From a virus (taxonomy: Duplodnaviria; Heunggongvirae; Uroviricota; Caudoviricetes): DNA of 64,000 nt. Below the pieces are notes generated by a model that was not told the DNA's origin, searched no databases, and was given only the letters and a program-made list of their open reading frames with translations. Of the stretch, positions 9,082 to 46,477 are shown piece after piece (position 1 is the stretch's first letter; each line of letters opens with the position of its first letter). The stretch lies in IMG/VR virus record IMGVR_UViG_3300026549_000047, positions 52,158 through 116,157 of that record; one strand, 5' to 3'. The position numbers and the translations under genes are program-made.

Positions 9082-9308
9082 TGAATTTGGTTAATGTCGA
9101 CGAGAGGTTTAACATTTCCCGTCAAAGTTATCACTTGATTTTTATTTTTAATCCATAGCCCTGCAAAAGATGGGGCAGATTTATCTCTACCATTTCCACT
9201 ATATAGGGGTTCTATCTCGGATTTAGGAATAAAGATATTATCCTTAAAGAGGCGTTCTGTCTCGGGGTCAAACTTATAGACTCCAGCCTTACTTACTATC
9301 TCTATCAT
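9078..9308 (-). CDS. hypothetical protein
   Basis: 76 aa ORF, translationally coupled (ATGA overlaps) on both sides. Confidence 0.4.
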   Translation of the reverse strand: MIEIVSKAGVYKFDPETERLFKDNIFIPKSEIEPLYSGNGRDKSAPSFAGLWIKNKNQVITLTGNVKPLVDINQIH

Positions 9309-10357: not shown

Positions 10358-10432
10358 GTTCTCCTTTAAAGAATTAATAAAGGTAAGAGAGTGAGTCTCT
10401 AGAGCTCTTGTTCTCTTACCTGAGTTGAATCG

Positions 10433-11746
10433 TTAGAAAGGCAGTCCATTAGCACCACCGCCAAAGCCTCCTGCGAAAGAGGGCTGTGAGAAAGGTGCAC
10501 TCTGGGGCTGAGCAGCCTGCTGTGCCGTACCTGCAACGGGTGCTCCCGTCAAGGGATCAATGTGTGATGCGGCGGGATTCTGGAATGGATTGTCGTTACG
10601 ATCAGCAACGGTCTGACCATTCTGAACTACATTATTGTTGCCGTATCCACCTACACCCTGTGCTGATGGTGCAGCCTGCACATTCATCTGAGCCAAGATA
10701 GGATCATTTGTCTGTGGGGTTGCAGCAGCTTTAGCAGCCTGGTTAGCGAGAGCGGTCTGATTGGTAGCCTGGATAGCTTCCTCAACAGAAGTTCCGTTCT
10801 GCTTAGCCATACGAATCTTAGCCAACTGGTCGGTCATGAATTCAATGGCCTCCTGAATGAGAGACTTATTGAATAGACGACGCTGATCAGCAGGTACAGA
10901 TTCGTCCTCACGATTAGCCTGCCAGCCAAGGAATGTTTCAACTGGATTCTGCATCAACTCCATGTCACTGGGGTCAATACTAATACCGTTCAGGAATGCT
11001 TCTGCTCCGAGTGTGTGACTAACCGAGATATTAAATCCGGGGCCATCGCTCTTGCTAATATTAAGAAGCATGAATCCTTTACGACCTGTCAGTTCGCGGT
11101 TGTACACATCAGCCAGCCATGCATCGTTACCAATGCCAGAGGTGATGTTAGTGTCAGCAATGCTATTACCAACAATCTCAGGGAACGCTTTACTCGTCAT
11201 CACAAACAGAGCATTAAAGTTCTGACGGACAGGAGTACGAGTATCCTGAACTGACCAGAAGTTAGGACAGTTACCGTAGAACACGGTATAGTTCTTACGA
11301 CGGATCAGACTACGAACAGTAGGATCAGTTGCATTGTTCTTGGCATCGAGCTCTGTAAAGAGTTCCTCCCAGACAGCATAAGCCTGACGCAAAAGTGACT
11401 CATCGGAAGCCGTCAATGACGAAACCTCACGACCTGTCGTCTGGTCTTTGATGGTATAGGCCTGCAGAGGCAAGAACTTAATCCAAGCCTGATAATTCTG
11501 CTCCTGACCATCGGCCGTTACATTACGACGAGGCATGCTAATCTCACGTGTATTAGCCAGACTCACATAAGGGAATCCACTAATTACGGAAGGGATTGGC
11601 AGAATCTGATAACGACCCATGTTAGTTGGGGCCGACAGATATACACGCTCAATCATTCTCTTTTTCTCGAAATTGCGCTTCTTATTAGAAGGGCTCAAAC
11701 TCTGTAATTTCTCCAAAAAGCTGTCTACATTACTAAACTGATTCAT
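10433..11746 (-). CDS. ssDNA-binding protein, T4 gp32-like (tentative)
   Basis: QNYQAWIKFLPLQ resembles gp32 GNGQAVIRFLPSK. Long Gln/Ala/Gly-rich C-terminal tail ends ...GGANGLPF, reminiscent of SSB C-terminal tips. It sits beside the replication genes. Confidence 0.45.
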   Translation of the reverse strand: MNQFSNVDSFLEKLQSLSPSNKKRNFEKKRMIERVYLSAPTNMGRYQILPIPSVISGFPYVSLANTREISMPRRNVTADGQEQNYQAWIKFLPLQAYTIKDQTTGREVSSLTASDESLLRQAYAVWEELFTELDAKNNATDPTVRSLIRRKNYTVFYGNCPNFWSVQDTRTPVRQNFNALFVMTSKAFPEIVGNSIADTNITSGIGNDAWLADVYNRELTGRKGFMLLNISKSDGPGFNISVSHTLGAEAFLNGISIDPSDMELMQNPVETFLGWQANREDESVPADQRRLFNKSLIQEAIEFMTDQLAKIRMAKQNGTSVEEAIQATNQTALANQAAKAAATPQTNDPILAQMNVQAAPSAQGVGGYGNNNVVQNGQTVADRNDNPFQNPAASHIDPLTGAPVAGTAQQAAQPQSAPFSQPSFAGGFGGGANGLPF

Positions 11747-11950
11747 AAAAAATTGTTTGTTTTAAAATAAAGATAATTTTATTAAATAAATAATTCTTCT
11801 ATGAGGAGGCTCTTCACTTAATGTCCTCCTCGTGTATAAGAATTTCACTTTCCGTTGGAGCGCGTTTTTTACGTTTCAGAGAACCAGAAAACCCTATACG
11901 TGATATAAAGGGAACCGGGCGACCCAAAGAGCCCGGATAAGTATAATAAT

Positions 11951-14593
11951 ATGAGAAGAATAGTAATTATTGATCAAATTGAAACACCAAATTATTTAGC
12001 GTATTTTGGATGTGGACTAGGAAACGAGATCTATACTGTTCAGTATCTTCAGGAACTTGAAGAAGATAAACTAAAACAGGTACTAGCTCTCGGACCCGGA
12101 GATGCTGCCATGCTTGTTGGAGCAGAGCCTTTCCGGTATCTCAGACAGTTTTATCATTTCGGAATTCGTGGTGAGAACTACTTTGATTGTGCTAAACTTC
12201 ATCGTTTAAGTATAGAGGGTGGAGCGTACGTTAAAGAGATTATCGACTTTCCAGATCAGAAAACTATTGATGAATTCCTGTCCCCAGAGTTTACACGGAA
12301 AATTGATTTTCCAGGATTTAAGTATAAAGTCATTCATGACTGGGAGGGAGCACTTCGATTCTTAGATTGGTGTGATTCACTTCCCCTAGATACGGACTTT
12401 GGATTTGACTATGAGGCATCTGGTATGCCTATGGAGAAGGTCTTTGCTGTGTCGGGGTATGCTATTTCTACTGAGAAGTATGCGGGGTTTGTTAGCTTGA
12501 CAGACATACGGCATCAAGTGGGAGAAGATAGTAAGGAGTATCGAGAAGTTTTGGATAGAACAGCTAAACTTCTAGTCAAAAGACAAAAACATATGTGGAC
12601 CTATAACCTTCAGTATGAGTATCAGGTAAGTCATAGACTTTTAGGAGTTGATCTATACGATTTATGTGATGCATCTGTGGTTAATGTCCTTGATGGAAAT
12701 CACGAGAAGCACTTCTCTCTCAAATTTACTGCCCAGTTTGTCTTGGGAGTTGATGTTTGGGATTCTGATTTCGATCGTCTTAGTGAACTTATCGAGCACA
12801 TGATTTTGGAGGAGGTTGGTAAACTTAAGAGAGATAAACATTTCGTCGTTAAGATTACTCCCGATACCTTTGAGAATACTCCCGAGTGGGAAGAGATTTG
12901 TGCTAGATATCCTGAATATGTAGATGAATTTAGAGCATTGATTCTTGAGTATTGGGGCAATCAGTTTATGCCTATCCCAAGTGAGATTCTCGGTAAATAC
13001 TGTTGTCTTGACTCTTTCTATACCCTGATGATCTACCTTAAGAAGAAGCCAGAGTATACACAAGAAGCTTTCGAAGTATTTATGGATAACCTTCGACTGG
13101 GTGCTCGTTTGATGAGCCATGGTCATTATATTGATGAGAATTATCGCTTGAAATATGATAAGTATTGTCGACAAATGATGGCTTGGTCGATTACATGGAA
13201 TACGAGAGCTCTTTGTTGGTTGAAGATGGAGAAGCATAAAGCTAAGGCTACAAATATAAAGAGATATAAAGACATTGCCATTAAGCTCCTAGAGGAAGGT
13301 AATTTCTTCCAGGGCAATTCCGTTGAGATTGTTAAGTACCTTTTAAGTACTAATATCGATACTATGGACACCACTGAAACCGGCTTAAATGAAGGTCAGA
13401 TTAAGATGAAGTATGGTGAGAAATTCGCCGATCAATTCGTTCAGCTGGTCAAAGATGCTATGGTTGAGGTGAAAATGAAAGGCAAGATTGATGAAGGAAT
13501 TGTCAGGAAGAAAAAGATTCTTGGAGTTTTAGCGGAAAATGCTAAACACTTGTTAGGTCTAGATCAACTTAAGTACGATGACAATGGAAAGATCAATTCC
13601 AAGCACATTGAGCTTGAGAAGTATATGTACTACAAAAAAGTTTATGAAGAGCTTGAGAGAATAAATAATAGACAGCTTAAGGATGTTAATAATATCCCTG
13701 ACACTATCTATATCTTTGGACAGAAGATGGAAATCTTAGAGTATGCAAACTACTTGCAAGATAATTATTTCCAGTGTCTTAGCCCAGAGAAAAACGATAA
13801 AATTGTCTATGATATGATGATGAATCAACAGCTTCCCGGTCTTCGTGCTAAGACAGCCTTCTTAGGTGCCATTCTTGAAAGTACCCAGCAGCTACCAGAA
13901 ACAGATAAGTTTTATAGTAGCAGAAACATAACTGACATTAATGTTGGTTTTGCCGAGATGATGAAGGAGTGGGAGACCTACTGGAAGAACGTAGATAGCG
14001 ACGGCATGATCCATTGGCATAGTTCTTTATATCCAGACAAGGTGTTTAACATCGCTATGGAACTATATCGTAGTCCTAAAACAAGTTCAAAAGTTTCAAC
14101 AAAGGGCGTTAAAGCGACTCTTTATGAAGTAGTTGACAAGGTAAAAGATATATGGACTGATTTTGCTGGATTTAATTGCCAGACACAGTTCTTCCCCGAA
14201 TATGCAAAGGATTATGAGAACTATGAGAGTCCATTTGATCCGATTCTGGACTTGAGTGATGAATTCTACTTCATGAGAAAGTTCACTATAAACTATCTAG
14301 TTTTCAAAAAGCATGCTAAGATGTTGTCAGTGTATGCTGGAGAAGACGGTATGTTTAATAAGAGGGCTAAGTATGTAATCGAAGATGAACACCACATTCC
14401 GATTCGAGATGCGGATCCTGATGAGCCAGGAGCAGTGAAGAAAAACTTTACTCCATACGAAGTGCTTATGAAGTCATCAAAGCGCTGGAGCTCAAGCTTC
14501 CACACGATTATCAGTCATGGAGATATAAAGAACTGTCTTGTACCTGCCCCAAGCTGGGATGAAAATGGAGACATCGTATATGGAGGCGCTGAT
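11951..14593 (+). CDS. DNA polymerase, family A: exon 1 (3'-5' exo domain to motif A ...GDIVYGGAD)
   Basis: The 895 aa ORF has an Exo I-like DFGFDYEASG block. It ends ...CLVPAPSWDENGDIVYGGAD(Q), aligning to the Pol I AF.AP....L.SADYSQIELR block just before motif A. The track's tail LLTYFDINKTSVT is predicted intron read-through. Confidence 0.75.
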
Positions 14594-16163
14594 CAGTTAC
14601 TGACATATTTTGACATTAATAAAACTAGTGTCACGTAGAAGTGATTCTATGTTAAAACAAACTTACTATATGCTGGAAAGACTTGTTAGGTCTCTGGTAC
14701 TAGTCGATTTAGTCACGACAGTAATAATCCAGAGAATAGAGTTAATCAGCAGGTTTAAGAAAAAGAAGAAATTAAAATAATATTAATTACGAAGAAATAT
14801 ATTATGGGAGCACTAGAGGATTTTGAAAAATTTTTGAAGGAGTCTGATATTAAGTCTCGTATAGACCTAAGTAAAAGATTTCCTTCAGTATATGATAGAT
14901 TCCTATTACTAGACGAGGAGTTTAAAGATAAGCTCTTACCATCTTTGGTAGTGCCAATAATATTGAGTGGCATAGATGAGTACAGTAATTTTATAAAAGA
15001 TCATAATATTACTACTAGAACCCAATTTTATAAAAGTTTTCCCAATGTATATAAAAGATTCATTAAAGACTTTAGTAAAGAAGACCAAGATAGGCTTCTT
15101 CCTAAACTAAAGAATACTTATGGTGATGAATCAGGTACTTATAGTTATTTGGAAAAATTTATTGAGGAAAATGATATAAAAAGTAGAACAGAATTTAGTA
15201 GTAGATGTGATGCACTTTATAAAAAATTCTTAAAATTACCAAAAAATGAACAAGAAGAACTGCTTTCTCAAAGCAAGTTTTCTGGAATAAAAGATTTTGA
15301 GAGTTTTAGTCAGTTTATAATAGATAATAACATTATTTCCAGGAAAGATTTTGATAAAAGATTTTCTAGATTGTATATGAAATTTTTAGAGATATTTTCA
15401 CCGGAGGAACAAGAAAGTTTACTACCTTCAAGTAGAGAAGATTTGTCTAGTCTTGTTGATTATTCTGGATTTTCTGATTTTATAAATAAAAATAATATAT
15501 TATCTAGGCGGGATTTTCAAAACAAATCAACTGCTGGATATCATAGGTTTAAGACCATGCTTAGTGAAGAAGAGCAAGATCTATTACTACCTATTTGTCA
15601 TTCGTCCGTTGGAGAATTATTTCTTATGGATTTATTCAATAAAAATGGATTTAAATTTTGTATACAAAAAGTATTTCAAGACTTATTCGGAAAAGGTAGT
15701 AGACCATTAAGGTATGATTTTTATTTACCGGAGTATAATATTTTGGTTGAATATCACGGTCGTCAACATTTTGATCTGGATGATAATTTTTACAATGAAG
15801 ATGCTATACTCAGGGATAAGGTGAAATTTGAATATGCAAAATTAAATAACATCTCTATACTCTATTTTACAAATGAGGTAGAGGTATATAATAAGTTTGG
15901 ATATTTCACCGAGGTTATAACTGATAGTGATATCCTTATAGAGAAAATAAAAGAGATTGGTCTGACTAACCAATTGAATTCTTAAACCCCAACGACTATC
16001 CCAATAGTGGGAGTACACTTGAAATCGTTAAGTGGAAACGGTAAGAATCTCATCTCTGAGATTAAGATATAGTCTGATCTGTATGGAGACATACAGGAGT
16101 TCGTCTTAGTTTAGATTAAGTGAGAACCGGGAGAAGTAACGTACCTCTTGAACACAAATGTAG
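14594..16163 (+). mobile_element. group I intron 1 of DNA polymerase gene (about 1.57 kb), carries a homing-endonuclease ORF
   Basis: Interrupts motif A. The ORF 14804..15985 overlaps the P3-P6 region. R element CCAACGACTATCCC at 15989-16002 and S element AAGATATAGTCTGA at 16065-16078. Downstream exon resumes ...SSAEVKAAGYASGD. Exact splice sites ambiguous: 5' at 14593 or 14598, 3' at 16158-16163. Confidence 0.6.
14804..15985 (+). CDS. intron-encoded homing endonuclease candidate: five tandem ~50-aa helical repeats + C-terminal DUF559/Vsr-like PD-(D/E)xK nuclease domain
   Basis: Five repeats of the pattern DIKSR.DFSKRF...Y.KFL....EEQ..LLPS. C-terminus RYDFYLPEYNILVEYHGRQHFDLDD...RDK matches the DUF559 (E.DG..H...D..RD) restriction-endonuclease-like motif. 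Confidence 0.65.
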   Translation: MGALEDFEKFLKESDIKSRIDLSKRFPSVYDRFLLLDEEFKDKLLPSLVVPIILSGIDEYSNFIKDHNITTRTQFYKSFPNVYKRFIKDFSKEDQDRLLPKLKNTYGDESGTYSYLEKFIEENDIKSRTEFSSRCDALYKKFLKLPKNEQEELLSQSKFSGIKDFESFSQFIIDNNIISRKDFDKRFSRLYMKFLEIFSPEEQESLLPSSREDLSSLVDYSGFSDFINKNNILSRRDFQNKSTAGYHRFKTMLSEEEQDLLLPICHSSVGELFLMDLFNKNGFKFCIQKVFQDLFGKGSRPLRYDFYLPEYNILVEYHGRQHFDLDDNFYNEDAILRDKVKFEYAKLNNISILYFTNEVEVYNKFGYFTEVITDSDILIEKIKEIGLTNQLNS

Positions 16164-16337
16164 TAGTGCGGAAGTAAAGGCAGCTGGGTATGCAAGTGGA
16201 GATCCTGACTTAATTTCGCGCTTCAATGATGGAACTGATATTTACATATACAGTGCAAAACTCTACCTTGGTGATGAAGGATGGGGGAAGTTAACTAAAA
16301 AACAACAAAAAACCTGGCGCAAACGTTTCAAGACCAT
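16164..16337 (+). CDS. DNA polymerase family A: exon 2 (motif A remainder to first half of motif B)
   Basis: Translation ...SSAEVKAAGYASGDPDLISRFNDGTDIYIYSAKLYLGDEGWGKLTKKQQKTWRKRFKTI aligns with Taq/E. coli Pol I YSQIELRxxAHLSGDENLIxxFxxGxDIHxxTAxxxFG...RRxAKxINF. Confidence 0.6.
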
Positions 16338-16622
16338 ATGTTGATGTGGCATAGTTAAGTAATTAACTAGTGAAAAGGTTGTGAACTCGTAAATACGAGG
16401 TGTGCTAAAAAAATAGTGCTAACGGTGGAAAGCTAAGTTCCTAAAAAATTAGGAATATGCCAATACCGTGCTAAGCTTGGAGTTAATCCGAGAAAGTGTA
16501 ACGACTATCCCTTCATGGGAGTAGGTTTAGGGTGAAATTCCCTATTCCGAAGTGCAACCTATCCGCAATAGTACGGATAATGATATAGTCTAATCCCAGA
16601 AAGAAATGATGGGTAGTAAATG
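16338..16622 (+). mobile_element. group I intron 2 of DNA polymerase gene (285 nt, ORF-less)
   Basis: Splits motif B: exon 2 ...RKRFKTI | FLGVLYG exon 3. Intron follows a U at 16337 and ends with G at 16622. Length 285 is divisible by 3, consistent with both exons sharing a genomic frame. R GTAACGACTATCCC (16503-16516), S GATATAGTCTAAT (16589-16601), then a P9 hairpin ATCCCAgaaagaaatgaTGGGTA. Confidence 0.7.
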
Positions 16623-17025
16623 ATTCTTGGGCGTTTTATATGGCCTAGGTAAGCAAAGCCTTGCGGAAAGACTTGATGCTTCTGTTGAAGAGGCAGAGGA
16701 TATTATACAAGGTCTTTATAAATCTTTCCCACAGCTCAGACATTACGTGGATTCACAGGGACAATATCCTCTAGATCACGATGGATATATTAGAACAATG
16801 TTAGGAGATAAACTTAGACTGAGAGAGTACTATGATTATCTTCCTAAAGCAAAAAATGATAGAGAAAAGAATAACTTAATTGCTCGTATTAAACGACTTG
16901 GTGTGAATCTTCCTATACAAGGAGGTACAAGCACTATAATGGCTCATGGATTTGATAATAATATTCGTGTGTCTATTAAGGAGGGATGGAGTCAGCCGTT
17001 ACAGCCAATTATAACGGTTCATGAT
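16623..17025 (+). CDS. DNA polymerase family A: exon 3 (motif B GVLYG ... PIQGG ... motif C VHD)
   Basis: FLGVLYGLGKQSLAERLDASVEEAEDIIQGLYKSFPQLRHYV...NLPIQGGTSTIMAHG...IITVHD matches Pol I NFGVLYG...FP....Y...A.N.PIQG.AAD....HDE. The ORF track starts at an internal TTG. Confidence 0.7.
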
Positions 17026-17152
17026 CAGATTAGGTCATGTAATTAAGAAGAATTGCTGGAATCTTAATAAGAAATCAGCAAACATAATTAATGTTTCAAT
17101 GACTGTGTATTTTAGCAAGAAGATACAGTCTGCCCTCAAGTTGAGGCTTGAG
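17026..17152 (+). mobile_element. group I mini-intron 3 of DNA polymerase gene (about 127 nt), inserted in motif C between HD and E
   Basis: Exon 3' end CAUGAU pairs perfectly with intron IGS GUCAUG (17033-17038), including the U.G at the splice site. P element AAUUGCUGGAAUC (17050-62), Q AAAUCAGCAAAC (17075-86). R UUCAAUGACUGUGUAU (17094-109) pairs with S AAGAUACAGUCUG (17122-134), a P7 covariation GACUGU/ACAGUC. P9 hairpin CCUCAAguUGAGG. Intron ends at G17152, so the spliced reading is ...ITVHD|ENTSNTNLIPVEH, restoring HDE and a LVFEVH-like strand. Confidence 0.7.
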
Positions 17153-17551
17153 GAAAATACGTCTAATACAAATCTCATCCCTGTTGAGCATATTTTTGAT
17201 ATACTTGCTTTCTATCAGAAGAATTATACGGATTATTGTGCTCAATGTGGACCTAAAATTCGTCTACTATTTGACTTGCTTGTAGGATTTGGTTATGAAT
17301 CAGCATGTCCTCTTAAGCAGATAGATGAAAATACGATAGAATTTTCAGGTCCTGCATCTAATATAATCTTAATTTACGATAAAATCATGAAGTGTAAGCA
17401 CATAAAGGTTGAGTGTAATAAGACTAGAGAAGAGATTATGGATTCTAGAAAGATGATCACTGATCCATATTATAGAACTATTCTCGAAAGTGGATGTTCT
17501 ATAGAAAAGGATACTTCTGATATCAAGGTTCAGTTCCATAAATTAAGCTAA
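17153..17551 (+). CDS. DNA polymerase family A: exon 4 (C-terminal ~130 aa after motif C)
   Basis: ENTSNTNLIPVEHIFDILAFYQKNY...KIRLLFDLLVGFGYESA aligns with Pol I ELVFEVHKDDVDAVAKQIHQLMEN...LDVPLLVEVGSGENW, with matching spacing. The ORF track's 17021..17551 has a spurious N-terminus made of intron sequence. Confidence 0.65.
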   Translation, partial: ENTSNTNLIPVEHIFDILAFYQKNYTDYCAQCGPKIRLLFDLLVGFGYESACPLKQIDENTIEFSGPASNIILIYDKIMKCKHIKVECNKTREEIMDSRKMITDPYYRTILESGCSIEKDTSDIKVQFHKLS

Positions 17552-17552
17552 A

Positions 17553-17612
17553 TTTATAGTCTCTGTTGTAATAGTTAAAATTACTATTATATGGAGACTA
17601 TTATTTTTTAAA
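17553..17612 (+). terminator. hairpin terminator candidate after DNA polymerase gene
   Basis: 8-bp stem TATAGTCTC...GAGACTATA with an internal GTAATagttaaaATTAC hairpin, followed by TTATTTTTTAAATATTT. Confidence 0.35.
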
Positions 17613-17623
17613 TATTTAAAATT

Positions 17624-18886
17624 ATGTTATATTTAGACTGTTGGAAATCTATGAAATATTATCGAAAAGATCAAGGAATGTTAGAAGATATTTCAGAAGT
17701 AGAGATATCTATTTCTGGAAAATTTAGAATAAAAAGAAGTAAACGAGATATTTCTGTCTATGATATTGGTCAAGGATATCCGGGCATTCTTTTGATCCGA
17801 GATGGTAGAGTTTCTAGATATCGTGCTCATGTAGCTATGATATCCTCTTTCGGTAGTTATGATTTTTCTAAATCGGGTTTAGTTGTAGATCATATAAATC
17901 GAAATATATGTGACTATAGATTATGTAATCTTCGATTAGTTACTGTCACTGAAAATAATAAGAATAGAGTTGTATTTAGAAAGAGCAGAGCATATATACT
18001 AGTTAATAGTAATGGGGATATAATAAAATCTGCTACTTTTCCAAACGAAGGGTCGAAGTTATATACCACTTTAAATAGGTTTAGGGAGAATAGGAAAGAT
18101 TATCTAGTAATCTCTTTATCAGAAGACTGTTTTTCGAAAATAAAAAATGTGAATAATATAAGCTATTTATTAAATCAAACTTGGAAAAAAGTAGGAACAA
18201 GCAATTTATACGTTGGGGAGAATGGTCTTCTGAAAATGAGTACGAACTTTGGACTCTATTTATCTTTCGGATCTATAAATAAAAATGGTTATTATGTGTT
18301 CAATAATAGGACTGCCAGGAAAGACAATTCTCAGTACGTTCACATACTAGTAGCTAAATATTTCCTTAATAGCGGTCAACCAATCGATAGTAAAAAGTTC
18401 TCCGTAGACCATATAGATACTAATAAAGAGAATAATAATTACCATAATCTTAGAATAGTATCATTAAAGGATAATATTAATAATCAGAATACTAAGATAA
18501 AACAAGAAAGATCTATTTCTATTAATTATCTAGGAGAAATTTATAAAATTCGAAGTGTTTTGGAGTTCTCAAAAATGACAGGACATAGTAGATCATCCAT
18601 AATGAAATGGATTTCAGATGGGATTAATATGAGAGGTCCTGCTGAAATTTTAGAAATTAAATACATTAGTAAAGAAGAAAAGTATGATGCGTTTAATAAT
18701 AATGAATTTATAGATGATATAAATTTTTTAAAATTTACTAGTATGGAAGATCTGAAAAGTATTAGATCTATAAACGAATTTATTAAAGAAAACAAGATAC
18801 GTGATATGTCTTTATTAAAAATTCAACTCCTGAATCAAATAAAGGATCTCGGTCTGTTAGATAGTATAAAATTATATTCCGAATAA
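17624..18886 (+). CDS. free-standing HNH homing endonuclease with two HNH-like motifs
   Basis: GYPGILLIRDGRVSRYRAHVAMISSF...VVDHINRNICDYRLCNLRLVTVTENNKN is a classic phage HNH pattern. A second motif is FSVDHIDTNKENNNYHNLRIVSLKDN. HTH-like MTGHSRSSIMKWI. Located immediately downstream of the intron-rich polymerase gene. The real start may be the Met near 17678. Confidence 0.7.
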   Translation: MLYLDCWKSMKYYRKDQGMLEDISEVEISISGKFRIKRSKRDISVYDIGQGYPGILLIRDGRVSRYRAHVAMISSFGSYDFSKSGLVVDHINRNICDYRLCNLRLVTVTENNKNRVVFRKSRAYILVNSNGDIIKSATFPNEGSKLYTTLNRFRENRKDYLVISLSEDCFSKIKNVNNISYLLNQTWKKVGTSNLYVGENGLLKMSTNFGLYLSFGSINKNGYYVFNNRTARKDNSQYVHILVAKYFLNSGQPIDSKKFSVDHIDTNKENNNYHNLRIVSLKDNINNQNTKIKQERSISINYLGEIYKIRSVLEFSKMTGHSRSSIMKWISDGINMRGPAEILEIKYISKEEKYDAFNNNEFIDDINFLKFTSMEDLKSIRSINEFIKENKIRDMSLLKIQLLNQIKDLGLLDSIKLYSE

Positions 18887-18904
18887 AAAAAATTAGAGAA
18901 AGGG

Positions 18905-18937
18905 ACTTCGTGTCCCAATCTCTTTTTATTTAATCCC
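18905..18937. terminator. bidirectional rho-independent terminator
   Basis: GGGACttcgtGTCCC hairpin followed by AATCTCTTTTTATTT on the plus strand, with an A-run preceding it for the convergent minus-strand gene. Confidence 0.5.
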
Positions 18938-19639
18938 CTTCAGCTTTTTCACTGTTTCCTCGTCTAGGAAATGTCCCATGCCATACGTGCTTTTGATCGG
19001 CTTCTGCTTTGGTTTTTTCTCCTTGGCAGGTAGACCGGTATCCTCACGTGTTTTGGCACGGATTATCCAGGCTATATCCTTTTCCTTCTCTTCACCACGA
19101 ATGCAGTCAGAGACGAACAGACTTAGCGCCCATTCAGCGGCATTGCTTAGGAGTTTCTCACTAGTGGCGCTGCAATAAGCTGTTGTACCAGTTCGTACTT
19201 CAATAGGCATTTTGTTGAGGAGTTTGTTGATTCGTTTCTTCTCCTCCTTAGTCCTCTCCTTCCGACCAGCCTCGGTCATTGCCTTGTCTACTAATGCTTC
19301 TTCTGCTTTTACCTCGTCGTGTGACTTGATAATGTTATTAGCACCAGCCACTCTGATGTTAAGAATACAGCATCGGTTTATATTGTTCTTAACCTGCTCC
19401 TCTGTGAAAGAGGCTACCAATGTCCCGGTATTGATGGGCAGGAAACCGCGAATGAGGTGTTTTACAAACTCACGTGAACCATCGGTTTTGTTCCAGAGTT
19501 CACAGATTTTCTGATATGCTTTGTTAATCTGATCCTCGTTCGGCTGTCCAAGTTTCTGGGGATGATCTTTTGTGTAGAGCTTAATTGGAGTTTTCTCATT
19601 TTGCTCTTTAAGTTTCTGTACTAATTCCGAATTGTTCAT
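18926..19639 (-). CDS. hypothetical protein
   Basis: 237 aa ORF; Lys/Glu-rich; no recognisable catalytic motif. Confidence 0.5.
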   Translation of the reverse strand: MNNSELVQKLKEQNEKTPIKLYTKDHPQKLGQPNEDQINKAYQKICELWNKTDGSREFVKHLIRGFLPINTGTLVASFTEEQVKNNINRCCILNIRVAGANNIIKSHDEVKAEEALVDKAMTEAGRKERTKEEKKRINKLLNKMPIEVRTGTTAYCSATSEKLLSNAAEWALSLFVSDCIRGEEKEKDIAWIIRAKTREDTGLPAKEKKPKQKPIKSTYGMGHFLDEETVKKLKGIK

Positions 19640-19703
19640 GATGTTTTATGAGTTTAATGTTATCAAGTATAAGGAAAAGAGCGTAACCACCTTATAGGTA
19701 GAT

Positions 19704-20258
19704 ATGATAGAAAGAAAATTAATTATTGGATTAGGAAATCCAGAAGAAGAAAGAAAAGAAACCAGGCATAATATTGGCTGGATGTGTATTGATAAGTTAG
19801 TAGGGGACGGTCAGTATATAGAAAAAGAGTATGGCTTAGTCTTTGAAACCCCTGAAGCCATTTATCTTAAGCCAACAGTTGGTATGAATTCTAGCGGTGA
19901 GGCTGTCAAGGCTGCTATGACTGAATATGAGATTGAAGCTAAAGATATTCTTGTGATCGTTGATGACCTTGACCTAGATTTTGGTCGCCTCAGATTAAAA
20001 GGAAAAGGCAGCACTAGACATAATGGCTTAAAGAGTATTGAGGAATGTATTGGCACTCAGAAATATGATCGCCTGAAGTTTGGAATAGGTCACGATTTTC
20101 CGGAAGGTGGACAATTTGATTATGTCCTTTCACCATTCACAGAAAATGAAGTTGCTCAACTCCCATACCTCATTGAGAGGGTGTCGGATGGAATTAAGAA
20201 CCACTACTTAGTGGAACCAAACAAGGACAAAGTAATGAACGTGATTAATAATGGATAA
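19704..20258 (+). CDS. pth: peptidyl-tRNA hydrolase (Pth family)
   Basis: LIIGLGNPEEERKETRHNIGWMCIDKL matches the Pth N-terminal signature LIVGLGNPGxxYxxTRHNxG. GSTRHNGLKSI matches GHNGL(K/R)SI. Correct length of 184 aa. Confidence 0.8.
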   Translation: MIERKLIIGLGNPEEERKETRHNIGWMCIDKLVGDGQYIEKEYGLVFETPEAIYLKPTVGMNSSGEAVKAAMTEYEIEAKDILVIVDDLDLDFGRLRLKGKGSTRHNGLKSIEECIGTQKYDRLKFGIGHDFPEGGQFDYVLSPFTENEVAQLPYLIERVSDGIKNHYLVEPNKDKVMNVINNG

Positions 20259-20526
20259 AGAGCTCTTAGAAAAATTACACGAAAACGGAAGTATGTTTCT
20301 ACTGCTTGTCTCGCTCATTTCGTCAGATACATTGACTGACTTAGAGGCATGTGAGGAATCAAAGAAGACAACAGAGGAGATTCTTTCCGTTTTACCAGAG
20401 GTTAATATTCCTGAAGAAGATAAAAAGAAATATGAAGATTATTTGAAGCGGGGACTTGAGATAATAGAAAGAGATGGAAAAGAGTTTAAAAGCTGTAGTA
20501 GTAAGAACAAAAGAAAGAAAACTTGA
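20251..20526 (+). CDS. hypothetical protein
   Basis: 91 aa ORF, 8-nt overlap with pth. Confidence 0.35.
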   Translation: MDKELLEKLHENGSMFLLLVSLISSDTLTDLEACEESKKTTEEILSVLPEVNIPEEDKKKYEDYLKRGLEIIERDGKEFKSCSSKNKRKKT

Positions 20527-20815
20527 ACTTAGGATAGGGTATGTCTTCTATCATAGAGACTTCCTTAATTCTGGTGAAACTTGTTTAGGAGGAACTAGGT
20601 GGAATATAGATGAAGAGAATAAAGAGGTTATTTTCTACGGCTTCTCCGACGACTTTGGCCAAATGCCTTCCGACGGGTGGGAATCTTTGGTGAAAGATTT
20701 TAAAGCAGACTGGTTAAACTCTTGGCATCTAGAGAGAATCCTCAAGAATGTTTTAAAAGTGGAGGATACAGATATTAACAATTATAAATTTAAGTATGGC
20801 GACAAAACAGCTTAG
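20474..20815 (+). CDS. hypothetical protein
   Basis: 113 aa ORF in operon context. Confidence 0.4.
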   Translation: MEKSLKAVVVRTKERKLELRIGYVFYHRDFLNSGETCLGGTRWNIDEENKEVIFYGFSDDFGQMPSDGWESLVKDFKADWLNSWHLERILKNVLKVEDTDINNYKFKYGDKTA

Positions 20816-21389
20816 AGCAGTTTACTTCGAGAGTATTAATGGAAGTTTTCTCAGGATGGGGTGGACAGAGTATGATAGAAATCTCTTAACCCCAGATGAT
20901 GGAGAGATCTGGAATGTTATGGCCTCTACCTGGTTCGTTGATACTAGTAGTAGGAGGATAATATTCAATGGACAATCTAATGAGTTTAAAGATCTTGAGA
21001 TTAAGCAGGAGAATATTAGTAACTGGAATGAGGCCGTCGATAGATTCAAGTGGTCTCAGGACAGACTTGATATTCAAGTTGTTTTATCGGTTGAGTTTGG
21101 CATGAGGAATGTGCCCATCGAAGAATATAACTTTGCTGCTCCAGTAAAAAGTTATCATCCTATTGAGAACTTTCATAATTTTAGGGTAGGCCAATTGAAA
21201 GAGATGCTTAGTAGTATATCAGATGATGACTTTATTATGGTTCAGGCTGATTCTCACTCAGGTAACTCTTACCCAATAGCGCACATTGAGGATAGTACTT
21301 CAATAGGATTCTGGGAACTTAGGTTTGACTCAAGCCGAGATTTCTGGAATACCCTGAATGAATATAAGAACAGTGGAAAGAAGGTGTGA
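20796..21389 (+). CDS. hypothetical protein
   Basis: 197 aa ORF in operon context. Confidence 0.45.
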   Translation: MATKQLRAVYFESINGSFLRMGWTEYDRNLLTPDDGEIWNVMASTWFVDTSSRRIIFNGQSNEFKDLEIKQENISNWNEAVDRFKWSQDRLDIQVVLSVEFGMRNVPIEEYNFAAPVKSYHPIENFHNFRVGQLKEMLSSISDDDFIMVQADSHSGNSYPIAHIEDSTSIGFWELRFDSSRDFWNTLNEYKNSGKKV

Positions 21390-22251
21390 TATATGCATCG
21401 AAGAACAGTGTGGCGGGAAACGTGACTGTAATTGCGATACTTGCCAAGTCAAAGATAAATGTCCGAAGATCCTCAGACCAACTATTAGGATAACCAATAG
21501 GTGTACTCAAGAGTGCAGCCATTGCTGTTTTGAATCTTCTCCGAAGTCTAATACAAATATGACTGTCGAGAAGGCAAAGGAGATTGCTAAGTTTCTAGAG
21601 GCCAATCAGATCCATGATTTGAACATGATGGGTGGAGAATTCTTCTGTAACCCAGATTGGTTGGAAGTTCTCATGGAACTTGGTCTTCCAGATCACATTA
21701 TCTATTTCAGATTAGTATCGAACAGTGATTGGTATAAGAATGACACCGTGAAGCAAGGTCTCCTTTCTTTGAGAGATGCACTTGGACCCAAGTTTCATAT
21801 GTCACTTTCAAAAGATAGGTGGCATACAAATGTTGGTGTAGAGAAGGCTGAGAAATGGTTAGTGGAAAATAATATTCTAACGATCGTTGCCAACAAGAGC
21901 AACACGAAACAAGAGAGTATTGTTCCTGTCGGCCGTGCAGAGTGGGGTTTCTGGGGATTCTTTGATACGATACAGAATCAATGTGCTGGAGATGAAGAGC
22001 ACTATACTTTCTTGATTGACGAAGAAGGTCTAATCTACAAATGCAACTTCGGTGTTTGGCCTTACGCAAAAGTGGATGAATACTTAGAGGGAGGTTTTAG
22101 GGAGAGATTCAAGTCCTATAACCAGAAGTTCTATAAAATATTTATCCCTAACTGCAAGGTATGCTATAGGAGCGCGAAGAGGTTTGAAACCGAAGAAGAG
22201 AACAAAGATCAGATCAGATACGATCGATTAGTAGTAAAAAGAGGTTACTAA
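21358..22251 (+). CDS. radical SAM enzyme (CX3CX2C) with additional N-terminal Cys cluster
   Basis: NRCTQECSHCCF is the CxxxCxxC radical-SAM cluster motif, followed by MMGGEFF (a GGEP-like SAM-binding motif). The N-terminus CDICIEEQCGGKRDCNCDTCQVKDKC suggests an auxiliary Fe-S site. It could be an NrdG-like or QueE-like activase, but it is not assignable from sequence alone. Confidence 0.55.
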   Translation: MNIRTVERRCDICIEEQCGGKRDCNCDTCQVKDKCPKILRPTIRITNRCTQECSHCCFESSPKSNTNMTVEKAKEIAKFLEANQIHDLNMMGGEFFCNPDWLEVLMELGLPDHIIYFRLVSNSDWYKNDTVKQGLLSLRDALGPKFHMSLSKDRWHTNVGVEKAEKWLVENNILTIVANKSNTKQESIVPVGRAEWGFWGFFDTIQNQCAGDEEHYTFLIDEEGLIYKCNFGVWPYAKVDEYLEGGFRERFKSYNQKFYKIFIPNCKVCYRSAKRFETEEENKDQIRYDRLVVKRGY

Positions 22252-22343
22252 AAGGGTAATCTCTTTATTTTTTCCCTCTGAAACGTAAAAAACGCGTTCA
22301 GGAAAGGGTATAATTCTTAAGCAATGAAGAAAAATAATACATC

Positions 22344-22414
22344 GCGGAGTGGAGAAGCTGGTATCTCGTCAGCCTCATAAGCTGAAGATCGTGGGATCGT
22401 GACCCACCTCCGCA
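22344..22414 (+). tRNA. tRNA-Met or tRNA-Ile2 candidate, anticodon CAT
   Basis: Cloverleaf: acceptor GCGGAG/CTCCGC; D stem GAGA/TCTC with GG in the loop; anticodon stem TCAGC/GCTGA with loop C-U-CAU-AA; 5-nt variable loop; T stem GTGGG/CCCAC. The T-loop ATCGTGA is non-canonical (A54...T58). Confidence 0.45.
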
Positions 22415-22472
22415 ACTATAAAAGAGATGATAACAATTTGTTAATAATTAACTTAAATTTTAAAAAGAAAGA

Positions 22473-23750: not shown

Positions 23751-23822
23751 GGACCGGTAGCTCAGTGGTAGAGCGGATGTTTGAAGGGCATCGCGTCGGT
23801 GGTTCAATTCCATCTCGGTCCA
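23751..23822 (+). tRNA. tRNA-Phe (GAA)
   Basis: Canonical cloverleaf: acceptor GGACCGG/TCGGTCC; D arm GCTCAGTGGTAGAGC; anticodon loop TT-GAA-GG; T arm GGTGGTTCAATTCCATC; discriminator A. Confidence 0.85.
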
Positions 23823-25684: not shown

Positions 25685-25757
25685 GCCTTCTTAATTCAAT
25701 TGGTAGAATTTCTGATTTGTAATCAGATCGTTATTGGTTCGAGCCCAATAGAAGGCT
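25685..25757 (+). tRNA. tRNA-Thr (TGT)
   Basis: Acceptor GCCTTCT/AGAAGGC (7 bp perfect); D arm ATTCAATTGGTAGAAT; anticodon stem TCTGA/TCAGA with loop TT-TGT-AA; T arm ATTGGTTCGAGCCCAAT. Confidence 0.85.
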
Positions 25758-34583: not shown

Positions 34584-34694
34584 ATTCTCAGGTTTATGAA
34601 ACCAAATAATTTCACCGATCTTTTGACCCGTTTGTCTATAACGACCACGGCCCATGATAGGATCATCTTTAAACTCATTCACATCTACGCCAAA
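34584..34694 (-). CDS. rpoB: RNAP beta subunit: 37-codon micro-exon between two introns
   Basis: Encodes FGVDVNEFKDDPIMGRGRYRQTGQKIGEIIWFHKPEN, matching the universally conserved beta C-terminal block [25 protein letters not shown]. It is hidden inside track ORF 34482..34724. Confidence 0.5.
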
Positions 34695-37985: not shown

Positions 37986-38057
37986 CGACGAATTGTAAGC
38001 TACACTTTGAGGTATTTGGATCTTACCAGTTAAGCTCTGCAAATTTCATTTTATTTC

Positions 38058-39427: not shown

Positions 39428-39434
39428 ACTAACC

Positions 39435-46471: not shown

Positions 46472-46477
46472 GTATAA

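What the first reader, a model, noticed from the sequence alone, without database searches (positions are those of the whole stretch)
17026..17152. A 127-nt group I intron in DNA polymerase motif C with textbook P1 pairing
The polymerase ORF appears to stop 6 codons after VHD, which would be catalytically impossible for a family-A enzyme. A 127-nt element follows the U of GAT (Asp). Its GUCAUG internal guide pairs perfectly, including the U.G wobble, with exon CAUGAU. P, Q, R and S elements are present, with a compensatory P7 change (GACUGU/ACAGUC instead of GACUAU/AUAGUC). It ends in G, and the next codon GAA restores HDE and a LVFEVH-like strand (ENTSNTNLIPVEHIF...LLFDLLVGFGYES). At 127 nt this would be well below the roughly 200 nt of the smallest characterised self-splicing group I introns, which implies a stripped-down ribozyme or dependence on a protein cofactor.
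Basis: partly seen in the sequence, partly recalled or inferred. Interest (0 to 1): 0.9.

Follow-up and report, generated by a model that had tools for sequence, protein, structure and literature searches.

The report
Miniature group I intron in polymerase
A 136-base stripped-down self-splicing-type (group I) intron interrupts the active site of a giant gut phage's DNA polymerase gene, and it belongs to a previously overlooked family of about 135-147-base introns that lack a normally conserved core helix.

Summary
The insert is real, but its 3' end is wrong. A 96-97% identical intron-less allele (L001) places it at window 17026-17161, which is 136 nt rather than 127. It follows the U of GAU and ends in G. 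Removing it gives VHD|SNTN, invariant in 32 full-length homologues, so no "HDE" is restored; G17152 lies inside helix P9.

The RNA keeps P1 (CAUGAU/GUCAUG, with U.G), an adjacent P10, a weak P3, P4, a P5 stub, P6, P7, P9 and the P/Q/R/S words. It has no P2 and no P8. A covariance model built without this sequence finds it at 78 bits (E about 4e-11), whereas Rfam's group I model gives 15.7 bits.

The same model finds three more 137-140-nt copies in the RNA polymerase genes of this window and dozens in other metagenomes. P4, P5, P6 and P7 covary (96% paired against 80% when shuffled). Related phages carry 140-142-nt minis 3 nt downstream and 302-396-nt introns 3 nt upstream, each with a matching guide sequence.

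Exon 4 is under strong purifying selection (dN/dS 0.019).

Verdict: a reduced group I intron, almost certainly spliced. Whether it self-splices without help was not tested. Small introns in such phages are published; this P8-less class was not found in the literature searched.

The parts
16623..17025 (+). Polymerase exon 3, ending ...QPIITVHD (motif C Asp codon GAU at 17023-17025)
   Evidence: Aligns without gaps to L001 5844-6246 at 97.0%. Translation.
17020..17025 (+). P1, 5' exon strand CAUGAU. U17025 is the 5' splice-site U of the U.G wobble.
   Evidence: Pairs with 17034-17039 (checked). The guide sequence changes to match the exon in relatives inserted 3 nt upstream or downstream.
17026..17161 (+). 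The intron: 136 nt, 34% G+C, a miniature group I intron with no P2 and no P8
   Evidence: Exact indel relative to the intron-less allele L001. R1 model 78.3 bits, E 4.4e-11. Identical in at least 4 independent assemblies.
17029..17033 (+). 5' part of the internal guide, AUUAG, which forms P10 with 3' exon CUAAU (17163-17167)
   Evidence: 5 bp directly 5' of the P1 guide, with a 1-nt offset. The joint P1 + P10 shuffle frequency is about 2e-4. Equivalent P10 pairings exist in L002 (AAUA/UAUU) and L141 (AAUAC/GUAUU) (sequences).
17034..17039 (+). Internal guide sequence GUCAUG (P1 3' strand)
17043..17047 (+). P3 5' strand UUAAG. It pairs with UUUAG at 17111-17115: 5 bp, two of them G.U, so weak.
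   Evidence: Same register as in relatives. Cognate P3 strands pair better than non-cognate ones (mean -1.10 against +0.18 kcal/mol; 0 of 20000 permutations reach the observed value).
17048..17052 (+). J3/4, AAGAA
   Evidence: Conserved as AAGAA or xxGAA in the family alignment
17054..17080 (+). P4 (UGCUGG 17054-17059 with UCAGCA 17075-17080; the classical P and Q elements) enclosing a P5 stub (C17063-G17071, U17064-A17070)
   Evidence: 100% paired in 36 sequences, with compensatory changes at 3 of the 6 P4 pairs. The P5 stub is 86% paired with many double changes.
17081..17095 (+). P6 hairpin, AACAU / AUGUU with loop AAUUA
   Evidence: The strongest covariation in the family: 17-24 double changes per pair at four of its five pairs among 36 sequences.
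17096..17100 (+). J6/7, UCAAU (5' part of the R element)
   Evidence: UCAAC is near-invariant in the family. It matches the Rfam group I consensus UCAaAGACUA seen for introns 1 and 2.
17101..17130 (+). P7 (GACUGUGU 17101-17108 with AUACAGUC 17123-17130; R and S elements) enclosing a 14-nt segment. That segment holds only the P3 3' strand (17111-17115) and the joining bases CAAGAAG (17116-17122). There is no P8 hairpin.
   Evidence: The fifth P7 pair is G-C here and A-U in most relatives (25 A-U, 9 G-C, 2 unpaired). This segment is 16 nt or shorter in 29 of 37 family members.
17134..17153 (+). P9 hairpin, CCUCAAGU / GCUUGAGG with loop UGAG.
   Evidence: Present in the minimum-free-energy folds. 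Relatives have a 5-8-bp hairpin at the same place.
17154..17161 (+). 3' tail AAAAUACG, ending in the terminal G (G17161) at the 3' splice site
   Evidence: Boundary fixed by the intron-less allele. Relatives have 8-11-nt tails ending in G.
17162..17551 (+). Polymerase exon 4, starting SNTNLIPVEHIF...
   Evidence: Aligns to L001 6247-6636 at 96.7%. dN/dS 0.019 (12 synonymous and 1 non-synonymous change).

Best explanation
Window 17026-17161 is a 136-nt miniaturised group I intron in the family-A DNA polymerase gene of a roughly 384-kb gut jumbo phage. It sits between the Asp and Ser codons of the invariant motif-C sequence VHD|SNTN.

Inferred mechanism, by analogy with ordinary group I splicing: the guide GUCAUG pairs with the exon end CAUGAU to form P1, placing the U.G wobble at the 5' splice site. 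The adjacent AUUAG pairs with the start of exon 4 to form P10. A guanosine bound in P7 attacks after U17025, and the freed exon then attacks after the terminal G17161. This joins GAU to UCU and restores an uninterrupted 1211-codon gene.

The RNA keeps P1, P10, a weak P3, P4 with a 2-4-bp P5 stub, P6, P7, P9 and the joining segments J3/4, J6/7 and J8/7. It has lost P2, P8 and every peripheral extension found in its full-size relatives.

Shown here: the exact boundaries, homology to a large family, covariation of P3, P4, P5, P6 and P7, guide sequences that track the insertion site, and purifying selection on the downstream exon.

Inferred: that it is actually spliced, and by group I chemistry.

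Not known: whether it splices on its own or needs a protein or chaperone.
For: 1. Boundaries. The intron-less allele L001 is collinear at 96-97% identity. It differs from the window only by introns 1 and 2, this 136-nt insert and an HNH cassette. The boundaries cannot slide.

2. Product. Removing the insert gives a protein 99% identical to the uninterrupted P0001 and the VHDSNTN motif invariant in 32 homologues.

3. Splice-site rules. U before and G at the end; P1 of 6 bp with U.G plus an adjacent P10 of 5 bp (about 2e-4 of shuffles).

4. The guide tracks the site.
- Full-size introns after CAU use GUGCAC with GUGCAU (L005, L010, L135).
- This intron, after GAU, uses GUCAUG.
- The minis after UCU use GGAGUCA or GGAGU with (UG)ACUCU (L002, L141).

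5. Homology. Model R1, built without the window, gives 78.3 bits and E 4.4e-11.

6. Covariation.
- 17 sequences: 96.9% of cells paired against 81.2% when shuffled, and 61 double changes against 18.
- 36 sequences: 96.1% against 80.2%, 127 against 42, and 12 of 21 pairs with compensatory change. Slid controls give 21-40% paired.
- P3: permutation p below 5e-5.

7. The gene is alive. dN/dS is 0.017 overall and 0.019 in exon 4. The identical intron occurs in at least 4 independent assemblies, one of them a 383,912-bp contig.

8. Sister copies. Minis at 35449-35587 and 34722-34861 on the minus strand interrupt an RNA polymerase beta-type gene. Their predicted junctions read straight through in alignment with a solved phage RNA polymerase: NRYGGKGVISKILPDSQMP against GRYGNKGVISKILPDDQMP, and LYHIPYSNK against LKHEPHSKF.

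9. Published context. Metatranscriptome reads confirm splicing of 37 of 76 predicted small group I introns in 360-402-kb gut jumbo phages (PMC12880540).
Against: - No RNA data exist for this intron, so splicing is inferred only.
- P8, part of the canonical conserved core, is absent. P3 here is only 5 bp with two G.U pairs (+0.3 kcal/mol as an isolated duplex).
- Rfam's group I model scores it at 15.7 bits against a 50-bit threshold. It finds none of the sister minis in 33-46.5 kb at E up to 1.
- The insert is open in the exon-4 reading frame from an ATG at 17021 (ORF 17021..17551). Only 1.6% of shuffles are open in that frame. This would fit separate translation of the C-terminal piece.
- Part of the family was collected with patterns derived from this very sequence, and alignment A4 is fitted to the model. 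Both inflate apparent conservation, though not the covariation at free positions.
Confidence: 0.8

Rival explanations
1. A non-splicing relic with a split enzyme. The insert is a decayed intron that is no longer removed, and the polymerase is made as two polypeptides that assemble: residues 1 to VHDQIRSCN, plus a C-terminal piece started at ATG 17021 or 17099.
For: - ORF 17021..17551 runs through the whole insert in the exon-4 frame, which only 1.6% of shuffles do.
- P8 is missing and P3 is weak.
- In L002 and L141 the last three intron bases are AUG, directly in frame with exon 4.
Against: - The break would fall inside the invariant VHD|SNTN active-site motif.
- The P1 and P10 guides are kept and change with the insertion site.
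- P3, P4, P5, P6 and P7 covary, which a dead relic would not maintain.
- The related minis L002 and L141 and the window copy at 35449-35587 have stop codons in the downstream frame inside the intron, so read-through is not a family property.
- The same family interrupts RNA polymerase motifs where the junctions read continuously only after removal.
Confidence: 0.08
2. One reading: a 127-nt intron at 17026-17152 whose removal gives VHD-ENT-SNTN and restores an HDE motif.
For: - It also restores the reading frame, because 136 - 127 = 9.
- It ends in G.
- The weak Rfam match happens to end at 17152.
Against: - The intron-less allele lacks all 136 nt.
- No homologue has the three extra residues, and VHDSNTN is invariant.
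- G17152 is paired inside P9.
- The exon start GAAAAU has no complement next to the guide, whereas CUAAU after 17161 does.
Confidence: 0.02
3. Recoding instead of splicing. Ribosomes shift frame in the 17021-17046 overlap and translate the insert as a 45-residue insertion, or hop over it.
For: - The two frames overlap by 26 nt.
- The downstream frame is open through the insert.
Against: - It would place about 45 unrelated residues inside an invariant catalytic motif that never carries an insertion in 32 homologues.
- No slippery site was seen, and there are no matching take-off and landing codons (GAU against ACG).
- It does not explain the conserved group I helices or the guide pairings.
Confidence: 0.03
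4. An artefact or a pseudogene: an assembly error or a dead polymerase gene.
For: The gene is broken four times in the raw sequence.
Against: - The identical insert is present in at least 4 independent assemblies from different sources.
- dN/dS is 0.017-0.019 across all exons against the intron-less allele.
- All three insert boundaries are exact.
Confidence: 0.02

Closest known systems
Full-size group I introns at the same polymerase site in related jumbo phages (L135 302 nt, L005 365 nt, L010 396 nt; L008 and L138 carry endonuclease genes)
   Same: - Same gene and same motif, inserted 3 nt upstream (after VH, CAU|).
- Same P, Q, R and S words: AAUUGCUGGAAC, AAUCAGCAG, UUCAACGACUAU, GAAGAUAUAGUCU.
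- P1 with U.G, and a terminal G.
   Different: - They have a G+C-containing P3 (CCUAC/GUAGG), an extended P5, an insertion between P7 and P3' that looks like P7.1/P7.2, a real P8 hairpin and extra hairpins after P9.
- The window intron has none of these and is less than half as long.
Small group I introns of Jug (jumbo gut) phages, Sci Adv 2026 (PMC12880540)
   Same: - Gut jumbo phages of 360-402 kb; the window is 100% identical to part of a 383,912-bp contig.
- Many essential genes, including the DNA polymerase, are split by group I introns and endonuclease genes.
- Introns are unusually short (mean about 206 nt).
- Splicing was confirmed by metatranscriptome reads for 37 of 76.
   Different: - The paper reports hits to published covariance models at E up to 1e-4 and gives no structural description.
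- The class described here is about 135-147 nt and lacks P8.
- Rfam's general model scores the polymerase copy at 15.7 bits and finds none of the minis in 33-46.5 kb at E up to 1.
- Whether the paper's tables include such copies could not be checked, because the supplements are not held.
- I did not test whether this phage belongs to the Jug clade.
Classical phage group I introns of subgroup IA2 (T4 td, nrdB, sunY; Bacillus phage polymerase introns). From my own knowledge, supported by the Rfam RF00028 consensus shown.
   Same: - The R and S core words are those of the RF00028 consensus (UCAaAGACUA, AAGAUAUAGUCu).
- Insertion in conserved motifs of DNA-metabolism genes.
- Association with homing endonuclease genes.
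   Different: Those introns are roughly 250-1000 nt with a complete P3-P9 core including P8. This one lacks P2 and P8 and has only a stub of P5.
Azoarcus tRNA-Ile intron, about 205 nt, usually cited as the smallest well-characterised self-splicing group I intron (from my own knowledge; not checked here)
   Same: Compact, with no open reading frame, and a minimal set of helices.
   Different: - Azoarcus keeps P2, P5, P8 and tetraloop-receptor contacts and is G+C-rich.
- The phage mini is about 70 nt shorter, 34% G+C, and has no P2 or P8.
Degenerate 56-81-nt group I-like introns in fungal SSU rDNA (Phialophora, Arthonia, Porpidia; PMC3160393)
   Same: Natural, much reduced derivatives of group I introns that keep P1, P7 and P10. 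In vitro splicing is claimed for one of them.
   Different: - Those lack P3, P4, P5, P6, P8 and P9 altogether and sit in rRNA.
- The phage minis keep P3, P4, P6, P7 and P9 with clear covariation, and interrupt protein-coding genes.
Engineered minimal group I ribozymes (sunY 'mini-ribozymes'; the td P3-P9 minimal catalytic domain). From my own knowledge; not checked here.
   Same: They show that large parts of a phage group I intron can be removed with activity retained.
   Different: The engineered minima keep the P3-P8 stack and drop P4-P6 or peripheral elements. The natural minis do the reverse: they keep P4-P6 in short form and drop P8.

Membership tests
Group I intron (canonical definition; Rfam RF00028) | 5' splice site follows a U that forms a U.G wobble closing P1 with an internal guide sequence | tested here: met
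   CAUGAU(17020-17025)/GUCAUG(17034-17039), 6 bp with U17025.G17034. The guide covaries with the site in relatives.
Group I intron (canonical definition; Rfam RF00028) | The intron ends in G, and the 3' exon pairs with the guide (P10) | tested here: met
   G17161 is fixed by the intron-less allele. P10 is CUAAU/AUUAG, adjacent to P1.
Group I intron (canonical definition; Rfam RF00028) | P4-P6 domain with conserved P and Q elements | tested here: met
   P4 is 100% paired with compensatory changes. P6 is 93% paired with 17-24 double changes at four of its five pairs. P5 is reduced to a 2-4-bp stub.
Group I intron (canonical definition; Rfam RF00028) | P7 with conserved R and S elements (guanosine-binding helix), flanked by J6/7 and J8/7 | tested here: met
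   GACUGUGU/AUACAGUC with UCAAU upstream and AAGAU-type bases before the 3' strand. There is one covarying pair, A-U or G-C. Guanosine binding itself is not testable here.
Group I intron (canonical definition; Rfam RF00028) | P3 pairing that makes the P3-P7 pseudoknot | tested here: met
   UUAAG/UUUAG, 5 bp, weak in this copy. Across 18 family members, cognate strands pair better than non-cognate ones (0 of 20000 permutations reach the observed value).
Group I intron (canonical definition; Rfam RF00028) | P8 hairpin stacked on P3 (part of the conserved P3-P9 core) | tested here: not met
   Only 7 unpaired bases (17116-17122) lie between the P3 3' strand and the P7 3' strand. 29 of 37 family members have 16 nt or fewer inside P7. 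I therefore file it as a reduced variant, not a canonical member.
Group I intron (canonical definition; Rfam RF00028) | Reaches the curated Rfam gathering score (50 bits) | tested here: not met
   15.7 bits, E about 1. No match in the narrower scan of 16950-17250. The sister minis are not found at E up to 1.
Group I intron (canonical definition; Rfam RF00028) | Guanosine-dependent two-step self-splicing | not testable with these tools
   Needs in vitro transcription with a GTP-labelling assay, or RNA reads.
Jug-phage small group I introns (PMC12880540) | Located in a 360-402-kb Bacteroides/Phocaeicola jumbo phage of the Jug clade | tested here: inconclusive
   The window is identical to part of a 383,912-bp contig. 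The family pattern hits many 200-400-kb IMG/VR contigs. The polymerase is only 56-60% identical to that of the abundant 400-kb group. No phylogeny was made.
Jug-phage small group I introns (PMC12880540) | Detected by the published subgroup covariance models at E up to 1e-4 | not tested
   Those models are not available here. Only Rfam RF00028 was run.
Mobile intron with homing endonuclease | Endonuclease gene inside the intron | tested here: not met
   136 nt leaves no room. Presence/absence polymorphism against L001 nevertheless shows gain or loss. A free-standing HNH gene (17624-18886), present only in the intron-bearing genome, lies just downstream.

The most novel reading that the evidence does not exclude
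These roughly 135-147-nt introns are autonomous ribozymes. That would make them the smallest natural self-splicing group I introns with a recognisable core, working with P1, P3, P4, P6, P7 and P9 but without P2 and P8. It would mean P8 is dispensable for group I catalysis in nature. It would also mean a whole population of such introns in gut and rumen jumbo phages has been missed by the general Rfam group I model.
Probability: 0.4. Interest if true: 0.8.

Novelty: new variant of a known kind. Interest (0 to 1): 0.62.

Why it matters
- Core size. If these introns splice on their own, they lower the natural size limit of a group I catalytic core by about a third. They would show that the P8 hairpin, treated as part of the conserved core, can be lost. 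That bears on ribozyme structure, on RNA evolution, and on engineering very small splicing or circularising cassettes.
- Annotation. Rfam's group I model does not detect them (15.7 bits for this copy; no hit at E up to 1 for the sister copies). Genes in jumbo-phage genomes will therefore be called as fragments. Here the DNA polymerase and the RNA polymerase subunits are split at their most conserved motifs. Intron counts in such genomes are probably underestimates.
- Intron evolution. The graded series at one site (396, 365 and 302 nt, then 142, 140 and 136 nt) gives a natural deletion series for studying how introns shrink. The shift of insertion site by 3-nt steps, each with a matching guide sequence, does the same for how they move.

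Tried and rejected
- Rfam at gathering thresholds over the whole window: only three tRNAs. A narrow E-value scan of 16950-17250 lost even the weak group I match.
- Nucleotide search of phage GenBank records with 16100-17700: only 13 weak matches, to the core of intron 2 in SPbeta-like Bacillus phages. No close relative is deposited.
- tblastn of the polymerase C-terminus against phage records: only matches of 32% identity or less. Not useful for the junction.
- Single-protein search of viral contigs: one locus. An alignment was needed.
- An automatic splice-site solver requiring P1, P10 and 40 open codons on each side. It recovers the window (136 nt), L002 (142), L156 (147) and L159 (135) uniquely. 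It fails for many copies with short exons or offset P10, so I did not use it for family-wide length statistics.
- UAGCAA (17113-17118) pairing with UUGCUG as the P3 helix: rejected, because it is not conserved in L002 or L141 and competes with P4.
- Ribosomal hopping as in T4 gene 60: rejected, because there are no matching take-off and landing codons and 136 nt is too long.
- Intein: rejected, because 136 is not a multiple of 3.
- Literature searches for P8-less, miniature or smallest group I introns in phages found no description of this class. The group I database paper gives no size limits in its text. The supplements of the Jug phage paper are not held.
Full report
**What is in the sequence**

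Window 11951-17551 (+) encodes a family-A DNA polymerase broken into four reading frames.

Two ordinary group I introns lie upstream.
- Intron 1 is 14617-16160 and contains ORF 14804-15985. Rfam RF00028 gives 47 bits for its 3' core.
- Intron 2 is 16338-16622 and scores 36.9 bits.

Both are below the 50-bit gathering score but far above noise. Their junctions rebuild motif A (DISSAEVK) and motif B (RKRFKTIFLGVLYG).

**Exact boundaries**

A protein search with the conceptually spliced polymerase found P0001, an uninterrupted 1211-residue homologue that is 99% identical. Its contig, L001, is collinear with the window at 96-97% DNA identity from 8946 to 21883. It differs only by four insertions in the window: intron 1, intron 2, window 17026-17161, and a 1.33-kb cassette after the stop codon that carries an HNH endonuclease gene.

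Window 17025 aligns to L001 6246 and window 17162 to L001 6247. The third insert is therefore exactly 136 nt. It follows the U of GAU and ends ...AAUACG. The boundary cannot slide, because the flanking bases differ.

Removing it gives ...ITVHD|SNTNLIPVEH.... The sequence VHDSNTN is invariant in all 32 full-length homologues that cover the region.

Both versions restore the frame, since they differ by 9 nt, which is why the error could not be seen from the sequence alone. G17152 lies inside the 3' strand of an 8-bp hairpin, P9.

**Anatomy of the 136 nt** (pairings checked)

| Element | Coordinates and sequence |
|---|---|
| P1 | exon CAUGAU 17020-25 with GUCAUG 17034-39; U.G at the splice site |
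| P10 | AUUAG 17029-33 with exon-4 CUAAU 17163-67 |
| J1/3 | UAA |
| P3 | UUAAG 17043-47 with UUUAG 17111-15 |
| J3/4 | AAGAA |
| P4 | 17054-59 with 17075-80 (the classical P and Q words) |
| P5 | stub of 2-4 bp |
| P6 | 17081-85 with 17091-95 |
| J6/7 | UCAAU |
| P7 | 17101-08 with 17123-30 (R and S words) |
| P9 | 17134-41 with 17146-53 |
| 3' tail | 8 nt, ending in G17161 |

There is no P2. Between the 3' strand of P3 and the 3' strand of P7 there are only seven unpaired bases, so there is no P8.

The isolated RNA folds better than all 200 shuffles (z = -3.3). A P1 of at least 6 bp with an adjacent P10 of at least 5 bp occurs in about 2e-4 of shuffles of the first 30 intron bases.

**The same site in relatives**

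Several homologous polymerases in the protein search stop at the same place. Their contigs show the following.

- Full-size group I introns of 302, 365 and 396 nt sit after the CAU (His) codon, three bases upstream (L135, L005, L010). Endonuclease-bearing versions are in L008 and L138. These have the same P, Q, R and S words plus a G+C-containing P3, a long P5, an insertion between P7 and P3', a P8 hairpin and extra 3' hairpins.
- Minis of 142 nt (L002-L004, three samples) and 140 nt (L141) sit after the UCU (Ser) codon, three bases downstream. They have the same reduced architecture as the window intron.

At each of the three positions the guide sequence matches its own exon:
- GUGCAC with GUGCAU;
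- GUCAUG with CAUGAU;
- GGAGUCA or GGAGU with (UG)ACUCU.

Each mini also has a P10 with its own downstream exon. A guide that tracks the insertion site is what selection for splicing predicts, and a decaying relic would not show it.

**A family, not a one-off**

A pattern spanning P4 to P7 found 103 stretches in IMG/VR contigs, mostly 200-400 kb, often several per genome. These include complete small introns of about 165-190 nt and copies with P5 or P8 reduced.

A pattern requiring a short segment inside P7 found 20 further metagenome loci. Nineteen distinct copies there show the same layout.

On 17 sequences excluding the window, the helices P4, P5 stub, P6 and P7 are 96.9% paired against 81.2% in shuffles, with 61 double changes against 18. 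Slid controls give 25-44%. RNAalifold recovers the same helices unaided.

P3 is short and A/U-rich, but cognate strands pair better than non-cognate ones (0 of 20000 permutations reach the observed value).

A covariance model from those 17 sequences (R1) finds window 17041-17134 as its best hit in the 64-kb window: 78.3 bits, E 4.4e-11.

Collecting 37 hits from 29 sources gives 96.1% paired against 80.2%, 127 double changes against 42, and 12 of 21 pairs with compensatory change. That alignment is fitted to the model, which favours the structure.

In 29 of the 37 hits the segment inside P7 is 16 nt or shorter, too short to hold a P8. A few keep a 2-3-bp stub and one has a full hairpin. Part of this set was selected by a pattern that demands a short segment, so the proportion is not an unbiased estimate.

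**More copies in this window**

R1 also hits about 14 places on the minus strand between 33.7 and 45.3 kb. That region encodes RNA polymerase beta' and beta-type proteins in many pieces.

I delimited three complete minis by hand:
- 35449-35587, 139 nt, P1 AACAGAU/GUCUGUU;
- 38047-38183, 137 nt, P1 GCCAU/GUGGC, P10 of 6 bp;
- 34722-34861, 140 nt, P1 of 8 bp.

For the first and third, the predicted spliced protein aligns straight across the junction with a solved phage RNA polymerase chain (7s00_C):
- ...GSKVTNRYGGKGVISKILPDSQMP against GSKITGRYGNKGVISKILPDDQMP;
- LYHIPYSNK against LKHEPHSKF.

Other hits are 5' halves and 3' halves that flank endonuclease-type ORFs, that is, the same intron family carrying a gene between P6 and P7. 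Rfam's group I model finds nothing in this 13.5-kb region at E up to 1.

**Is the gene alive, and is the insert real?**

Between the window and L001, dN/dS is 0.017 over the whole gene. It is 0.019 for exon 4 alone (12 synonymous changes, 1 non-synonymous), in the frame produced by removing 136 nt.

The exact 176-residue ORF that runs through the insert is found on six contigs from at least four independent samples. One is a 383,912-bp contig that is 100% identical to the window. The intron is identical in all of them. One (L163) lacks intron 2 precisely but keeps intron 3.

An assembly artefact or a pseudogene can be dismissed.

**Mechanism and rivals**

The best reading is a reduced group I intron removed from the pre-mRNA at 17025|17162 by the usual guanosine-initiated two-step reaction, guided by P1 and P10. 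I put this at about 0.8. It is an inference, because no RNA data were available.

What cannot be decided is autonomy. With no P8, a weak P3, 34% G+C and no peripheral contacts, the RNA may need high Mg2+, a chaperone or a protein.

The main rival, at about 0.08, is that it is not spliced and the enzyme is made in two pieces. The only positive evidence for that is that the insert is open in the exon-4 frame from an ATG at 17021, which only 1.6% of shuffles are. The related minis L002 and L141 and the window copy at 35449-35587 do not share this property. The break would also fall inside an invariant catalytic motif.

Frameshifting or hopping, the 127-nt version, and artefact are each at most 0.03.

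**Comparison with what is known**

Group I introns in phage polymerase genes are classical (my own knowledge).

A 2026 paper on 360-402-kb gut 'Jug' phages reports 2513 group I introns with a mean length of about 206 nt. It reports frequent splitting of DNA polymerase genes, and metatranscriptomic confirmation of splicing for 37 of 76 predicted introns (PMC12880540). This window very probably comes from that kind of phage. I did not test clade membership.

That paper gives no structural description, and its supplementary tables are not held. crAss-like phages are also known to be intron-dense (PMC7886860).

Much smaller 'degenerate' group I introns of 56-81 nt, with only P1, P7 and P10, are described in fungal rDNA (PMC3160393).

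I found no description of a 135-147-nt class that keeps P3, P4, P6, P7 and P9 but lacks P8. The library searched is incomplete.

Because P8 belongs to the canonical conserved core and is absent, I classify this as a new variant of a known kind. It works like a group I intron and descends from one, but it does not meet the full canonical definition or the Rfam threshold.

**Verdict**

Interest is 0.62. The finding is not a new principle, and small introns in such phages are already published. A natural P8-less group I core of about 136 nt, present in many copies in essential genes and missed by Rfam's group I model, would still surprise ribozyme specialists and can be tested directly.

Noticed in passing
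window 14617-16160 and 16338-16622 (+): Two further group I introns lie in the same polymerase gene. Intron 1 is 1544 nt, sits in motif A, has P1 UGACAU/GUGUCA and carries a 393-codon ORF (14804-15985) with no Pfam match. Intron 2 is 285 nt and sits in motif B. Both score below Rfam's gathering threshold (47 and 36.9 bits against 50). Both extend beyond the Rfam match at the 3' end and finish in AAAUG.
   Followed up: partly
window 17553-18881 (+), ORF 17624-18886: A 1.33-kb cassette with a free-standing HNH_3 endonuclease gene (Pfam E 1.7e-17) sits directly after the polymerase stop codon. It is absent from the intron-less allele L001 and present wherever intron 3 was seen together with its downstream flank (L162, L163). 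It may cut the intron-less allele and so drive spread of an intron that has no endonuclease gene of its own ('collaborative homing', from my own knowledge). Not tested.
   Followed up: partly
window 33700-46500 (-): The RNA polymerase beta'/beta-type genes (Pfam Rpb1 domain 2, Rpb2 domain 6) are fragmented into more than 12 ORFs by introns of the same family. There are three complete P8-less minis: 35449-35587 (139 nt), 38047-38183 (137 nt) and 34722-34861 (140 nt). There are also copies whose P4-P6 half and P7 half flank ORFs: 44235-44315 / ORF 43280-44248 (TnsA-like plus NUMOD3) / 43216-43266; 41626-41691 / ORF 40616-41611 / 40577-40651; and 37872-37935 / ORF 36968-37873 / 36910-36960. Rfam finds none of them at E up to 1.
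   Followed up: partly
window 17021-17161 (+): The whole intron is open in the exon-4 reading frame, starting at an ATG that overlaps the His-Asp codons (ORF 17021..17551, 176 aa). Only 1.6% of shuffles are open in that frame. The related minis L002, L141 and window 35449-35587 have stops in that frame. Either a coincidence, or a back-up way to translate the C-terminal piece from unspliced RNA. Unexplained.
   Followed up: partly
3' ends of window introns at 16160, 16622, 38047 (-) and 34722 (-); L002:6133; L141:715: Many introns of this family end in ...AUG, often AAAUG, so the terminal G is the last base of a potential start codon in frame with the downstream exon. The polymerase mini in this window ends in ACG instead. 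The significance is unknown.
   Followed up: no
L163 (JGI 3300039431) against window 16338-16622: An otherwise 100% identical contig lacks intron 2 precisely but keeps intron 3 and the HNH cassette. The three polymerase introns are therefore gained or lost independently within one phage population.
   Followed up: partly
L141:858-948 (+); L143, L149, L150, L154, L157, L159 (several hits each): Model R1 finds additional minis in the same short contigs. One is a second copy inside the C-terminal polymerase exon of L141, and there are up to three copies within 1.5 kb in L157. Local intron density is very high in rumen and gut phage contigs.
   Followed up: no
window 17113-17118 against 17053-17058 (+): UAGCAA in the segment inside P7 is complementary to the P4 5' strand UUGCUG (6 bp). 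This is an alternative pairing that would compete with P4. It is not conserved in L002 or L141, so it is probably fortuitous or a misfolding trap.
   Followed up: partly
Motif C of the polymerase, window 17017-17025 plus 17162-17173: This polymerase family has VHDSNTN, invariant in 32 full-length homologues, where textbook family-A enzymes have HDE. It is an unusual active-site variant for a family-A polymerase of about 1200 residues with a long N-terminal region.
   Followed up: no
window 19704-20258 (+); 22343-22415, 23751-23822, 25685-25757 (+): A peptidyl-tRNA hydrolase gene (Pfam family as listed for the syntenic genes in L001 and L162) and three tRNA genes lie downstream of the polymerase. 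This is typical of large phages that carry translation-related genes.
   Followed up: no
L152:200-339 and L156:8579-8725: A 140/147-nt mini in a different gene is inserted after ...GUAGACUCU|, with guide GGAGUCU. This is nearly the same target and guide as the polymerase minis after GACUCU| (L002, L141). It fits spread to ectopic sites that resemble the guide complement, for example by reverse splicing.
   Followed up: no
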